Of a stretch of DNA of 64,000 bases, positions 61,304 through 63,213 are shown piece by piece. Position 1 is the first letter of the stretch; each line of letters opens with the position of its first letter. Under the pieces are notes generated by a model. It was not told the DNA's origin and did not search any database. It saw only the letters and a program-made list of their open reading frames with translations. The stretch comes from a phage. The DNA lies in sequence record PZ445448.1; one strand, 5' to 3'. The translations under genes and the position numbers were made by a program.

Positions 61304-61329
61304 GGTTGTTTTCGTGTATCATGATGAAT

Positions 61330-61620
61330 ATCCAATTTAAAGATGAATTTGATGGCTTTATCTCCGGATGCTTTGAAACAGGGTTCGGAGAAGACTGAGT
61401 TCCCCTTAGAGGGCTTGATAGTGCACCACACTTAAAATGGTAGGGGCAGCCAGCACATGACGATGTGACTCCAGCCAACCTGTAACAAGGTCGAGCCGAA
61501 GCGCGGGTAATAGGCCTCTGGTAACCCACTTGTTGGGTCTTGCTGGTCCAGGACGCTGGACAAGTCGCAGGGAACACCACCCTGCGGCGAACTTGACAAT
61601 CAGTATTTGCTATGATAAAA
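61330..61620. ncRNA. candidate structured RNA or leader (second GC-rich island)
   Basis: GC-rich with perfect hairpin CGCAGGG-AACACCAC-CCTGCG and others; no credible ORF. Confidence 0.2.
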
Positions 61621-61997: not shown

Positions 61998-62026
61998 TTG
62001 ACAAACTTTGCTTAACAGTGTAATAT
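61998..62026 (+). promoter_or_regulatory. sigma70 promoter TTGACA-N17-TAATAT ahead of tRNA cluster
   Basis: consensus hexamers about 60 nt upstream of first tRNA. Confidence 0.5.
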
Positions 62027-62084
62027 TGTAAACATGGTCTCCCACCTTTTCTGGCGGCTAAGGTGTAAAAGAAAGCCACCCAGT

Positions 62085-62159
62085 GCCCTGTTAGCTTAGT
62101 GGATAAAGCAGCGGCCTTCTAAGCCGTTGACACTGGTTCGAGTCCAGTACGGGGTGCCA
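62085..62159 (+). tRNA. tRNA-Arg (anticodon TCT)
   Basis: cloverleaf folded by hand: acceptor GCCCTGT/ACGGGGT, anticodon loop CTTCTAA, T-loop TTCGAGT, encoded CCA. Confidence 0.75.
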
Positions 62160-62163
62160 AATT

Positions 62164-62250
62164 GGGGAGTTATCCCGTAGAGGTAGCGGTGTAGACTGTA
62201 AATCTATTGTCATTGCGACTCGGGTGGTTCGACTCCACCACTCCCCACCA
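62164..62250 (+). tRNA. tRNA-Tyr (anticodon GTA), long variable arm
   Basis: acceptor GGGGAGT/ACTCCCC, anticodon loop CTGTAAA, T-loop TTCGACT, CCA. Confidence 0.7.
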
Positions 62251-62364
62251 AATTTATATTTTTAGATGCATAAATAATACAGATAATGGCATTGATATTT
62301 ATCGTCGTTTATACTAGTCACTAACTGCTCGAAAATCAGTGTCATTATCAGTATAATTTATAAA

Positions 62365-62455
62365 GGAGGGTAGGGAGCAATGGTGCTCAAGCGGTCTTGA
62401 AAACCGTCCCGTTGAGGATGACTCGATGATGGTTCGATTCCATTACTCTCCGCCA
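62365..62455 (+). tRNA. tRNA-Ser (anticodon TGA), long variable arm
   Basis: acceptor GGAGGGT/ACTCTCC, anticodon loop CTTGAAA, T-loop TTCGATT, CCA. Confidence 0.65.
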
Positions 62456-62553
62456 CATTGTTGACCTTGTAATTAAGCGAAAGCCGGAAGCAGAACCGGA
62501 TTATCAAATGTTACAGTCGTCATCGCCGACTAGCAACATGGTCAACATACTGA

Positions 62554-62650
62554 GCTAGGTAAGCCCTTTGGCAAGGGCGAGGATTTTTAATCCTGAAAAT
62601 AGACGAGGTAGTCGTTGAATACATAGGTGGTTCGATTCCATCACCTAGCA
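62554..62650 (+). ncRNA. 97-nt tRNA-like element with irregular anticodon region
   Basis: perfect 7-bp acceptor GCTAGGT/ACCTAGC, D-arm, T-loop TTCGATT, but about 10-24 nt too long and no clean anticodon stem. Confidence 0.35.
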
Positions 62651-62657
62651 CCTTTTT

Positions 62658-62733
62658 GCTGATGTAGCACAATCGGTAGTGCAATTGATTTGTAATCAAT
62701 AGGTTGTAGGTTCAAGTCCTGCCATCAGCACCA
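62658..62733 (+). tRNA. tRNA-Thr (anticodon TGT)
   Basis: acceptor GCTGATG/CATCAGC, anticodon stem ATTGA/TCAAT loop TTTGTAA, CCA. Confidence 0.8.
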
Positions 62734-62734
62734 A

Positions 62735-62809
62735 GGCCCTGTAGCTGGAAGGTTCAAGCAAGCGACTCATAATCGCCAGACGGTGGTTCAATTCCACCCA
62801 GGGCCACCA
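62735..62809 (+). tRNA. tRNA-Met or Ile2 (anticodon CAT), elongator type
   Basis: acceptor GGCCCTG/CAGGGCC with G1-C72, anticodon loop CTCATAA, CCA. Confidence 0.7.
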
Positions 62810-62820
62810 AATAGTAAATA

Positions 62821-62897
62821 CTCCGCGTAGCTCAGCTTGGTAGAGCGCCTGATTTGGGATCAGGAGGTCGAGTGTTCGAATCACTCCGTGGAGACCA
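62821..62897 (+). tRNA. tRNA-Pro (anticodon TGG)
   Basis: D-arm GCTCAGCTTGGTAGAGC, anticodon stem CCTGA/TCAGG loop TTTGGGA, T-loop TTCGAAT, CCA. Confidence 0.8.
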
Positions 62898-62943
62898 CTT
62901 TCAGTTATACTTTAAACATATATAAACAAAAGGAACCTTTAAA

Positions 62944-63213
62944 ATGTATACACTTAAAATTGTAGAGCGTGTAAATCCAACTCATACCGTAGATTTTCGT
63001 GACGATTTCAATCCTCTGGCTGTAAATCTTCGAGAGTCATATCATGAACTCAGCTGCGATGCAGTGGTGGTCTTTTTTGAAGACAACTCTGAAGGGGCGG
63101 TAGCTTGTGTTGTTGATAGTGAGCAGAAGTTTTATATTTACAGAGATGTAGATGCATACTTGATGAATGAAAACGCAGTTACTGTTAGAATCATCCACCG
63201 AGTGCCTCGATAA
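62944..63213 (+). CDS. hypothetical protein
   Basis: AAAGGAACCTTTAAA-ATG. Confidence 0.45.
   Translation: MYTLKIVERVNPTHTVDFRDDFNPLAVNLRESYHELSCDAVVVFFEDNSEGAVACVVDSEQKFYIYRDVDAYLMNENAVTVRIIHRVPR

What the first reader, a model, noticed from the sequence alone, without database searches (positions are those of the whole stretch)
62554..62650. 97-nt tRNA-like element embedded in the tRNA cluster
It has a perfect 7-bp acceptor stem, discriminator, a D-arm (GCCC/GGGC) and a T-arm with TTCGATT loop, but is too long for a canonical tRNA and its anticodon region (GAGGA TTTTTAA TCCTG) plus an extra hairpin (GACGA GGTAG TCGTT) do not fold into a standard anticodon arm. T4 is known to encode stable tRNA-like RNAs of unknown function within its tRNA cluster; this may be an analogue, a tRNA with an insertion or a pseudo-tRNA.
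Basis: partly seen in the sequence, partly recalled or inferred. Interest (0 to 1): 0.55.

Follow-up and report, generated by a model that had tools for sequence, protein, structure and literature searches.

The report
Conserved non-decoding tRNA mimic in phage rV5
A 97-base RNA gene in the tRNA cluster of E. coli phage rV5 folds like a tRNA and is kept throughout its phage subfamily, but it has no conserved anticodon, so it is probably a tRNA look-alike with a non-decoding job and not the lysine or suppressor tRNA that genome records call it.

Summary
Window 62554-62650(+) is a five-armed, tRNA-shaped element in the tRNA operon of phage rV5. ARAGORN calls it "tRNA-???", and the Rfam tRNA model scores 35.5 bits against a cutoff of 29.

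It belongs to a sharply bounded family. I found 23 distinct variants from more than 200 Vequintavirinae genomes and related metagenomic contigs. Members score 97-116 bits on a family model, while ordinary tRNAs score 29 or less.

All 460 tested base-pair cells pair, and 10 of 20 pairs show compensatory changes. One of these is the tertiary elbow pair G19:C56, which becomes U19:A56.

The "anticodon" hairpin is a covarying 5-bp stem with a 5- or 6-nt loop whose sequence differs between genera. No anticodon is conserved. Two junction strands (GAAAA, AAUACAUA) are invariant. The extra arm differs completely between RNAs whose bodies are 98-100% identical.

Records label it nothing, tRNA-Lys, tRNA-OTHER, tRNA-Stop or suppressor. 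It is not related to T4 rnaC or rnaD.

Best reading: a selected, non-decoding class-II-type tRNA mimic that acts in trans on a factor recognising the tRNA body. That function is inferred, not shown. In rV5 the loop also resembles the E. coli tRNA-Lys loop, so a lineage-specific Lys role is not excluded.

The parts
62554..62560 (+). Acceptor stem, 5' strand (GCUAGGU), pairs with 62643-62649
   Evidence: In 23 variants all 7 pairs are always paired, and 4 pairs show changes on both sides (1:72, 3:70, 4:69, 6:67).
62561..62562 (+). Positions 8-9 (A8 invariant, A/G9). A8 replaces the near-universal U8, and U14 replaces A14.
   Evidence: Read from the alignments. The tertiary meaning is inferred.
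62563..62578 (+). D arm: stem GCCC/GGGC and loop UUUGGCAA. The second G (62571) is the G19 equivalent.
   Evidence: 3 of 4 stem pairs covary. Column 18 pairs with T-loop column 90 as G:C in 16 variants and U:A in 7, with no exception.
62579..62579 (+). Invariant G at position 26
   Evidence: invariant columns.
62580..62594 (+). Anticodon-like hairpin: stem AGGAU/AUCCU with 5-nt loop UUUUA. The alternative reading is 4 bp plus a 7-nt loop UUUUUAA.
   Evidence: Pairs 1-3 are always paired. Pair 4 is A-U, U-A or C-G. Pair 5 is U-A, C-G, or C.A in 3 of 23. Loops are UUUUA, UUAUA, AUCAA, CAUCCA, CAGCCA, CCUCCA and CUUCCA.
62595..62601 (+). Junction strand 1 (GAAAAUA); GAAAA is invariant
62602..62616 (+). 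Extra (variable) arm: GACGA-GGUAG-UCGUU, the hypervariable cassette of the family
   Evidence: It folds as a hairpin in nearly all variants. A-U becomes G-C in Avunavirus. The arm is 44-70% identical between RNAs whose bodies are 97-100% identical.
62617..62625 (+). Junction strand 2 (GAAUACAUA); AAUACAUA is invariant in all 23 variants
62626..62642 (+). T arm: stem GGUGG/CCAUC and loop UUCGAUU. C at 62633 is the C56 equivalent.
   Evidence: The stem is always paired, and U-A becomes C-G at 51:63. The C56/A56 switch is tied to G19/U19.
62643..62652 (+). Acceptor stem 3' strand (ACCUAGC), discriminator A (62650) and CC (62651-62652), followed by UUUUU rather than A
   Evidence: The other genera encode U-CCA (15 variants). 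Avunavirus has U/C-ACA.
61998..62026 (+). Sigma-70-type promoter of the tRNA operon (TTGACA-17-TAATAT), the likely source of the transcript
   Evidence: It is annotated P(tRNA) in the rV5 record. A second promoter-like site lies at 62329-62357. No transcription data are available.

Best explanation
The element is a gene for a stable, L-shaped, class-II-type tRNA mimic that is conserved throughout the phage subfamily Vequintavirinae. It is transcribed with the tRNA operon. It is presumably cut out like a tRNA, by RNase P at G62554 followed by 3' trimming and CCA completion.

It keeps what tRNA-body-binding factors see: the acceptor stem and 3' end, the D/T elbow, and an anticodon-length arm. 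Its 'anticodon' hairpin is closed to a 5- or 6-nt loop of non-conserved sequence, so it does not act as a codon reader.

Its function resides in the tRNA-like body, in two invariant junction strands, and in a rapidly exchanged extra arm. The most likely function is to act in trans, by occupying or being used by a factor that recognises tRNA shape. My leading guess is a host tRNA-targeting defence nuclease or toxin, or a tRNA-processing enzyme.

Shown here: the structure, selection on it, the absence of a conserved anticodon, the family boundaries, and dispensability in culture.

Inferred: expression and processing, the absence of decoding, and the trans-acting mimic or decoy role.
For: 1. Fold. 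The five-arm cloverleaf is the minimum-free-energy structure (z = -4.09).
2. Covariation. 460 of 460 pair cells are standard pairs across 23 distinct variants. 10 of 20 pairs changed on both sides. Partner-slid controls pair in only 34-47% of cells, and 0 of 500 shuffles reach the observed covariation score.
3. Elbow. The tertiary pair G19:C56 (16 variants) switches to U19:A56 (7 variants) without exception. This indicates a real L-shape.
4. No anticodon. The stem is 5 bp with compensatory changes at pairs 4 and 5. Loops are 5 or 6 nt and differ by genus.
5. Selection. GAAAA and AAUACAUA are invariant. The body is 75-95% identical between genera, against 57-78% for tRNA-Thr, Arg and Tyr of the same phages.
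6. Distinct family. Members score 97-116 bits on model R1. The best ordinary tRNAs score 29 bits or less.
7. Range. It occurs in Vequinta-, Avuna-, Seuna-, Mydo- and Henunavirus and in uncultured relatives: 166 and 62 phage records with two queries, plus IMG/VR and metagenome contigs. An exact-motif scan of 185,579 bacterial genomes found none.
8. 3' end. U-CCA is encoded in 15 variants although the downstream sequence differs. This suggests a tRNA-like 3' end matters.
9. Modular arm. RNAs with 97-100% identical bodies carry unrelated extra arms. This is the pattern expected of a specificity module or an arms race.
10. Accessory status. Natural deletions in phages V18 and O157 typing phage 4 remove it.
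Against: - There is no expression, processing, charging or binding data for any member. I found no paper on it.
- No partner was identified. I did not search the phage genome for a partner gene; the only check was the rV5 genome paper, which names no tRNA-related enzyme.
- A decoy for anticodon nucleases would be expected to keep a target-like loop, yet the loop is the least conserved part.
- In rV5 itself the hairpin can be read as 4 bp plus the 7-nt loop UUUUUAA. [quoted passage not shown] So decoding as Lys in this lineage is not excluded.
- The 23 variants are related sequences, so the shuffle controls overstate significance. The slid-partner control is the fairer one.
Confidence: 0.45

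Rival explanations
1. In the Vequintavirus lineage it is a working, oddly built class-II-like tRNA-Lys(UUU). It would be charged by LysRS and read AAA/AAG, perhaps as a replacement resistant to nucleases that destroy host tRNA-Lys (PrrC, PARIS, Schlafen-type).
For: - The Rfam tRNA model aligns a 7-nt loop UUUUUAA with anticodon UUU and passes the gathering score, 35.5 against 29.
- BASEL and other records annotate it tRNA-Lys.
- Positions 30-40 match E. coli tRNA-Lys at 10 of 11 nt (E. coli sequence in PMC11464382).
- The discriminator is A only in Vequintavirus. From general knowledge, A73 plus UUU are the LysRS identity elements.
- Host tRNA-Lys is a known target of PARIS and of a bacterial Schlafen.
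Against: - The reading needs a missing nucleotide or a G.G mismatch at 27:43, and an unpaired U32-A38 that elsewhere covaries as a pair.
- The closest genus, Avunavirus (93-95% identical), has UUAUA with discriminator U or C. Other genera have 6-nt loops. Selection has therefore preserved everything except the supposed anticodon.
- It is the only one of the seven genes in the cluster without an encoded CCA.
- A8/U14 and the 7- and 9-nt junction strands are unlike any decoding tRNA I know of.
Confidence: 0.15
2. It is a tRNA-derived remnant with no trans function. It would be kept only as a cis element of the polycistronic tRNA precursor, for example an RNase P cleavage or folding punctuation that frees the neighbouring tRNAs, or it would simply be drifting.
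For: - It always lies inside tRNA clusters. Outside Vequintavirus it sits 2 nt after the CCA of an upstream tRNA.
- It is dispensable in V18 and typing phage 4.
- The neighbouring tRNA in Seuna- and Mydovirus also has a degenerate anticodon loop.
Against: - A mere punctuation signal needs no invariant 8-nt junction strand, no conserved elbow pair with covariation, and no encoded CCA.
- The body is more conserved than real tRNAs.
- Drift is excluded by the compensatory changes.
Confidence: 0.12
3. It is aminoacylated through acceptor or long-arm recognition but is not used by ribosomes. It would serve as an amino-acid carrier or a charging-dependent regulator, as with B. cereus tRNA-Other or the non-proteinogenic tRNA-Gly of staphylococci.
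For: - The CCA end is conserved, and U73 with G1-C72 and C2-G71 occurs in most genera. This resembles the acceptor identity set of tRNA-Gly (general knowledge).
- Seuna- and Mydovirus loops contain UCC or GCC.
- It has a long extra arm like the class II tRNAs, whose synthetases ignore the anticodon.
Against: - The discriminator varies (A, U, C) and pair 3:70 varies (U-A, C-G, A-U). This argues against one fixed synthetase identity.
- The rV5 genome paper names no tRNA-dependent transferase, though the text search I ran would only have caught ligases, kinases, hydrolases and synthetases.
Confidence: 0.1
4. It is a nonsense-suppressor tRNA, as annotated: tRNA-Stop(tta) in phage JLBYU08 and 'tRNA-TERM suppressor' in Erwinia phage pEp_SNUABM_01.
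For: - Those annotations exist.
- Henunavirus variants have a 7-nt loop CAUCAAA containing UCA, and score 37.6-39 bits on the tRNA-Sec model.
Against: - In rV5 no register puts UUA at positions 34-36 with a paired stem.
- The Henunavirus loop has A33 rather than U33, and its tRNA-Sec score is below the cutoff of 47.
- Other genera have no stop anticodon.
Confidence: 0.03
5. The region encodes a small protein on the minus strand (ORF 62520-62699, 59 aa). Some records annotate a hypothetical protein here.
For: The ORF exists. FFH2, PMBT16, Mydo and KE22 records list hypothetical proteins over the element.
Against: - The substitution pattern is pairwise-compensatory in RNA helices.
- The element measures 97 nt in rV5 and about 104-107 nt in other genera, differences that are mostly not multiples of three.
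Confidence: 0.01

Closest known systems
Canonical bacterial and phage tRNA (Rfam RF00005), especially class II tRNAs with a long variable arm (Leu, Ser, Tyr)
   Same: - 7-bp acceptor stem, discriminator and a (partly) encoded CCA.
- 4-bp D stem with a GG-containing loop, and a 5-bp T stem with a UUCGAUU loop.
- An elbow pair that covaries.
- A fifth arm in the variable region.
- Located in a tRNA operon.
- The rV5 copy passes the Rfam cutoff.
   Different: - The loop is 5-6 nt and there is no conserved anticodon.
- It has A8/U14 in place of U8/A14.
- The extra arm is joined by invariant strands of about 7 and 9 nt, where class II tRNAs have one or two nucleotides (general knowledge).
- Most family members fail the Rfam tRNA model.
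Phage T4 stable RNAs species 1 and 2 (rnaC, rnaD)
   Same: Small non-tRNA RNAs encoded inside a phage tRNA cluster, with unknown function and dispensable (T4 annotation). rnaC carries a T-arm-like hairpin.
   Different: There is no detectable sequence or structure similarity: the family model gives no hit at rnaC or rnaD. The T4 RNAs are longer, at 139 and 119 nt.
Bacterial pseudo-tRNAs such as Bacillus cereus tRNA-Other (from my own knowledge, not checked here)
   Same: A tRNA-shaped RNA with an abnormal anticodon region that is not used in normal decoding.
   Different: Different organism and sequence. tRNA-Other is chromosomal and is reported to be lysylated. Nothing is known about charging of this element.
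tRNA-like modules of other non-coding RNAs: the YrlA (Y RNA-like) tRNA-like domain, the tmRNA tRNA-like domain and plant-virus 3' tRNA-like structures
   Same: Mimicry of the acceptor, T-arm and elbow part of tRNA in order to engage tRNA-binding proteins.
   Different: Those are domains of larger RNAs with other functional parts. Neither ARAGORN nor Rfam assigns this element to tmRNA or YrlA. The G3:U70 alanine identity pair of tmRNA is absent.
Phage tRNAs that neutralise tRNA-cleaving defences (T5 tRNA-Lys against PARIS; phage tRNAs with anticodon-loop mutations)
   Same: A phage-encoded tRNA-shaped RNA. The rV5 hairpin top resembles the tRNA-Lys stem-loop that AriB recognises (PMC11464382; PMC10264068 listed).
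   Different: Those are functional decoding tRNAs with 7-nt loops and conserved anticodons. This family has neither.

Membership tests
Canonical tRNA (RF00005) | 7-bp acceptor stem with discriminator and 3' CCA | tested here: met
   The stem is always paired in 23 variants with 4 covarying pairs. CCA is encoded in 15 variants. Only CC is encoded in rV5.
Canonical tRNA (RF00005) | D and T arms forming the elbow (G18G19 with psi55 C56) | tested here: met
   G19:C56 in 16 variants and U19:A56 in 7, with none unpaired.
Canonical tRNA (RF00005) | 5-bp anticodon stem closing a 7-nt loop with U33 and purine 37 | tested here: not met
   Loops are 5 nt or 6 nt in 20 of 23 variants. The three with a 7-nt loop have A33. 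In rV5 a 7-nt reading needs an open U-A pair and a G.G mismatch.
Canonical tRNA (RF00005) | Same anticodon and identity in orthologues | tested here: not met
   Possible triplets are UUU, UAU, UCA or none. The discriminator is A, U or C.
Canonical tRNA (RF00005) | Score at or above the Rfam gathering threshold (29 bits) | tested here: inconclusive
   rV5 scores 35.5 and Avunavirus 33.1. Seuna-, Mydovirus and L041 variants have no hit at E <= 0.01. Henunavirus variants match only tRNA-Sec, below its cutoff.
Canonical tRNA (RF00005) | Aminoacylation and codon-dependent ribosome binding | not testable with these tools
   Needs charging assays and tRNA sequencing.
Class II tRNA (Leu/Ser/Tyr) | Helical long variable arm | tested here: met
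   It folds as a hairpin in nearly all variants, with compensatory changes.
Class II tRNA (Leu/Ser/Tyr) | Leu, Ser or Tyr anticodon, and an arm joined by very short linkers | tested here: not met
   There is no such anticodon. The linkers are 7 and 9 nt and invariant. Normal linker length is from general knowledge.
tRNA-Sec (RF01852) | 8/5 acceptor/T geometry, UCA anticodon, score at or above 47 bits | tested here: not met
   The acceptor stem is 7 bp. rV5 has no Sec hit. Henunavirus variants score 37.6-39 bits.
Nonsense-suppressor tRNA | Anticodon complementary to a stop codon in a standard loop | tested here: not met
   rV5 has no in-register UUA, CUA or UCA. Henunavirus has UCA, but preceded by A33.
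T4 rnaC/rnaD stable RNAs | Sequence or structure similarity to rnaC or rnaD | tested here: not met
   Model R1 gives no match at L047 2909-3172. It matches only the T4 tRNA-Thr and tRNA-Leu genes, at 24-25 bits.
T4 rnaC/rnaD stable RNAs | Non-tRNA stable RNA encoded within a phage tRNA cluster | tested here: inconclusive
   The location criterion is met. Stability and expression are unknown.
tmRNA | tRNA-like domain with G3:U70 plus a tag reading frame | tested here: not met
   ARAGORN finds no tmRNA. Pair 3:70 is U-A, C-G or A-U.
YrlA / Y RNA-like | Match to RF02553 with a Ro-binding helix | tested here: not met
   There is no hit on the element. The weak YrlA hit at 62762-62874 lies on tRNA-Met and tRNA-Pro.

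The most novel reading that the evidence does not exclude
The family may be a modular tRNA decoy. An invariant tRNA-shaped scaffold would present two exchangeable modules, the anticodon-like hairpin and the extra arm. These would be re-tuned by mutation and recombination to imitate whichever host tRNA, or to bind whichever host tRNA-targeting immune nuclease or toxin, the phage meets. In E. coli phages of the rV5 type the hairpin copies the tRNA-Lys stem-loop that PARIS, PrrC and Schlafen-type nucleases attack. This would be the first RNA-only, non-decoding anti-defence tRNA mimic in phages.
Probability: 0.15. Interest if true: 0.85.

Novelty: new variant of a known kind. Interest (0 to 1): 0.58.

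Why it matters
- Annotation. More than 200 sequenced therapeutic-candidate phages of E. coli, Salmonella, Klebsiella, Cronobacter, Proteus and Erwinia carry this gene. Records either miss it or give it contradictory names (tRNA-Lys, tRNA-OTHER, stop or suppressor tRNA, hypothetical protein). A 'suppressor tRNA' label can raise needless concern, and a 'tRNA-Lys' label feeds wrong codon-usage arguments.
- Biology. It is a clean, small and strongly constrained example of a phage RNA that keeps tRNA shape while abandoning decoding. It also carries a cassette-like hypervariable arm.
- Open question. It offers a tractable entry into what the non-tRNA RNAs in phage tRNA clusters are for, and into the current question of how phages deal with tRNA-directed immunity.

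Tried and rejected
- ARAGORN's own fold (stem AUUUU/AAAAU with an 8-nt loop and 'atcc'). It depends on a U-run that is absent in the other genera. Rejected.
- Homology with T4 rnaC and rnaD. There is no model hit.
- A scan with a wrongly spaced motif found nothing. This was my error, not evidence.
- A bacterial origin. An exact motif scan of GTDB genomes found nothing. This test is weak because it needs an exact match.
- Base-pairing targets in the window for the extra arm or for AAUACAUAGG. Matches were at chance level.
- Membership for a 102-nt class-II-like RNA in Stephanstirmvirinae phage KP13-26. It scores 24.8 bits and lacks both junction motifs, so it is not a member.
- Literature searches for this element, for Vequintavirinae small RNAs and for phage tRNA mimics or decoys returned nothing specific. 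One search failed on a term that was too short.
- The rV5 genome paper lists six tRNAs, not this element. A search of its text turned up no tRNA-related enzyme.
- MAFFT and the covariance model both left the hairpin's fourth and fifth pairs out of register. I counted those by script instead.

Full report
**Source and context.** The window is the genome of Escherichia phage rV5 (DQ832317/NC_011041) read on the reverse strand. Window 62000-62950 is 100% identical to it. The finding lies in the phage's tRNA operon between tRNA-Ser(UGA) and tRNA-Thr(UGU). The operon also holds tRNA-Arg, Tyr, Met(CAU) and Pro. It sits behind a strong sigma-70-type promoter at 61998-62026, annotated P(tRNA) in the record.

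**Observation.**
- A perfect 7-bp acceptor stem, a discriminator A, a GCCC/GGGC D stem, a GGTGG/CCATC T stem with a TTCGATT loop, and an additional hairpin GACGA-GGTAG-TCGTT.
- ARAGORN reports 'tRNA-???' with a four-base 'anticodon'.
- The Rfam tRNA model scores 35.5 bits against a gathering score of 29. It does so by treating 26 nt as an insertion in the variable region and reading UUUUUAA as the anticodon loop.
- The thermodynamic optimum is a five-arm cloverleaf at -34.2 kcal/mol, z = -4.09, with 0 of 200 shuffles as stable.

**How records treat it.**
- The reference rV5 record and the genome paper list six tRNAs and omit this element.
- BASEL-collection records call it tRNA-Lys (AAA).
- Murica calls it tRNA-OTHER (Asp|Gly).
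- JLBYU08 calls it tRNA-Stop(tta).
- The orthologue in Erwinia phage pEp_SNUABM_01 is 'tRNA-TERM, suppressor'.
- Nearly all Seunavirus and Mydovirus records show nothing, or a spurious hypothetical protein.

**Homologues.**
- BLAST with the element finds 166 phage records.
- A Mydovirus-type query finds 62 records, and a metagenomic-type query finds 156.
- Motif scans add IMG/VR and metagenome contigs of about 120-150 kb.
- The same motif finds nothing in 185,579 bacterial and archaeal genomes.
- After removing duplicates there are 23 distinct variants. They come from Vequintavirus, Avunavirus, Seunavirus, Mydovirus, Henunavirus and uncultured relatives.
- A covariance model built from them separates the family cleanly. 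Members score 97-116 bits. A deletion chimera in phage V18 scores 35.7. Ordinary class II tRNAs score at most about 29.

**Structure is under selection.** On the model-guided alignment, all 460 cells of 20 tested pairs are standard pairs. Ten pairs show changes on both sides. Sliding the 3' partner by 1-3 columns drops pairing to 34-47%, and 0 of 500 shuffles reach the observed covariation score.
- Covarying positions include acceptor pairs 1:72, 3:70, 4:69 and 6:67, three of the four D-stem pairs, and T-stem pair 51:63.
- Most telling is the tertiary elbow pair. A D-loop of UUUGGCAA always goes with a T-loop of UUCGAUU (16 variants). UUUGUCAA always goes with UUAGAUU (7 variants). This is G19:C56 switching to U19:A56, and it argues for a genuine L-shaped fold.
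- The relatedness of the sequences inflates the shuffle statistics. The slid-partner control and the number of independent pair types are the fairer evidence.

**The anticodon-like hairpin.** Counted by script, because the aligners left it out of register, the stem is 5 bp.
- Pairs 1-3 are constant in type.
- Pair 4 is A-U, U-A or C-G.
- Pair 5 is U-A, C-G, or C.A in 3 of 23.
- The loop is UUUUA (Vequintavirus), UUAUA (Avunavirus), AUCAA (Henunavirus and relatives), or CAUCCA, CAGCCA, CCUCCA or CUUCCA (Seuna- and Mydovirus).
- If the fifth pair is opened, the readings become UUU, UAU, UCA (preceded by A33) or an 8-nt loop.
- No triplet, loop length or discriminator (A, U, C) is conserved, while almost everything else is. 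Selection in this family is therefore not on codon reading.
- The Rfam tRNA model fails on Seuna-, Mydovirus and L041 variants at E <= 0.01. Henunavirus variants match only tRNA-Sec, below its cutoff.

**What is conserved instead.**
- Invariant in all 23 variants: A8, the UUU at the start of the D loop, G26, GAAAA after the hairpin, and AAUACAUA immediately 5' of the T stem.
- Without the extra arm, the rV5 element is 75-95% identical to its orthologues in other genera. tRNA-Thr, Arg and Tyr of the same phage pairs are 57-78% identical.
- U-CCA is encoded in 15 variants despite differing downstream sequence. Vequintavirus has A-CC(U) or A-CA(U), and Avunavirus has U/C-ACA.
- In rV5 this is the only gene of the cluster without a full CCA. 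Maturation there would need 3' trimming and the host CCA-adding enzyme, as is known for some T4 tRNAs (general knowledge).

**The extra arm is a hypervariable cassette.**
- It is a hairpin in nearly all variants. There is a compensatory A-U to G-C change between Vequinta- and Avunavirus.
- RNAs with 97-100% identical bodies (L008, L010, L020, L029, L033, L040) carry arms that are only 44-70% identical, which is essentially unrelated.
- One arm type has a short stem and a conserved 13-nt loop, GAACUAACAGUAC.
- I found no complementary target in the window for the rV5 arm or for the invariant junction strand.

**Dispensability.** Phage V18 and O157 typing phage 4 carry deletions that fuse the 5' part of tRNA-Tyr to the 3' part of the element. 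This removes tRNA-Ser and the element. The element is therefore an accessory gene in culture.

**Comparison with the known.**
- It shares the tRNA body plan, and in rV5 it passes the Rfam cutoff. It fails the defining anticodon-loop and anticodon-conservation features, so I do not file it as a tRNA of any isotype.
- It is not related to T4 rnaC or rnaD, to tmRNA or to YrlA.
- Literature searches found no description of it.
- It is best described as a new family of phage tRNA-like RNAs, which makes it a new variant of a known kind.

**Mechanism.**
- Shown: a selected L-shaped tRNA mimic with a tRNA-like 3' end, a non-conserved closed 'anticodon' hairpin, invariant junction strands and an exchangeable arm.
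- Inferred: it is cut from the operon transcript by RNase P and 3' processing, and it acts in trans on something that recognises tRNA shape.
- The combination of an invariant core with fast-changing peripheral modules, in a dispensable phage gene, makes interaction with a variable host factor the most attractive reading. A tRNA-directed defence nuclease or toxin is the obvious candidate. There is no direct evidence and no identified partner. I give the whole statement 0.45.
- The main rival for rV5 itself is a lineage-specific tRNA-Lys role. The hairpin top matches E. coli tRNA-Lys at 10 of 11 nt (positions 30-40; sequence from PMC11464382). The discriminator is A only in this genus. tRNA-Lys is the target of PARIS and of a bacterial Schlafen. 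The same facts also fit a Lys-stem-loop decoy.
- The comparative data do not support decoding, but they cannot exclude it for one lineage.

**Verdict.** This is a real, conserved, previously uncharacterised and widely mis-annotated tRNA mimic whose function remains to be tested.

Noticed in passing
window 62456-62553 (+), between tRNA-Ser and the element: The 98-nt 'spacer' appears to be another structured RNA. Its outer helix (about 62460-62466 with 62540-62546) keeps pairing through 3 double-sided changes among only 4 Vequintavirus variants. The interior (GCCGGAAGCAGAACCGG ... CAGTCGTCATCGCCGACTAG) is nearly invariant. Single-sequence fold z = -2.57. No Rfam match. It was found only in Vequintavirus loci.
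   Followed up: partly
L005 1419-1494; L006 1418-1494; L009 1351-1426; L010/L011 1351-1425: The tRNA immediately upstream of the element in Seuna- and Mydovirus has an intact body and a covarying acceptor stem (UCCUCGU, UCCUCGA, UUCUCGA with matching 3' strands) and an encoded CCA. Its anticodon loops are abnormal and variable (ACGAUUC, ACAGAUCC, AAGAUUC, ACGAUA), with no U33 and lengths of 6-8 nt. ARAGORN calls some of them tRNA-???. This may be a second non-decoding tRNA-like gene.
   Followed up: partly
L012 1452-1543 (phage V18); L013 about 1437-1528 (O157 typing phage 4): Natural deletions join the 5' part of tRNA-Tyr to the 3' part of the element at a short shared TC(A/G)TTG. The resulting chimeras have mismatched acceptor strands and lack tRNA-Ser, the spacer RNA and the element.
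   Followed up: yes
window 61306-61592 (+), between ORF75 and promoter P74: An unusually G+C-rich intergenic stretch of about 290 nt with several hairpins. Fold z is only -1.6 and there is no Rfam match. One record (V18) annotates a short ORF there. Its nature is unknown.
   Followed up: partly
L049 2285-2386 (Klebsiella phage KP13-26, Stephanstirmvirinae): An unannotated 102-nt class-II-like tRNA-shaped sequence with an encoded A-CCA end, a 7-nt loop CUUAUAC (UAU) and a long extra arm. It is not a member of the family studied here, at 24.8 bits and with no junction motifs.
   Followed up: no
window 62000-62950: Parts of the rV5 tRNA cluster match several hundred T4-like (Tequatrovirus) and other phage genomes at 80-95% identity: 737 records matched, of which only 113 cover most of the query. 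This suggests shared or exchanged tRNA genes between unrelated phage groups.
   Followed up: no
Records MG0656xx ('Campylobacter phage' C15, C2, A12a and others): About 18 records labelled Campylobacter phages are 99-100% identical to rV5-like coliphages over this region. They are probably mislabelled or contaminant assemblies.
   Followed up: no
window 62735-62809 (+): The CAU-anticodon tRNA is annotated tRNA-Met in most records but tRNA-Ile (ATA, implying lysidine modification) in BASEL records. The isotype is unresolved.
   Followed up: no
window 62624-62660 (+): In Vequintavirus the element's T-arm/acceptor helix is followed by UUUUU, which the scan flags as terminator-like. It might cause partial termination before tRNA-Thr.
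   Followed up: no
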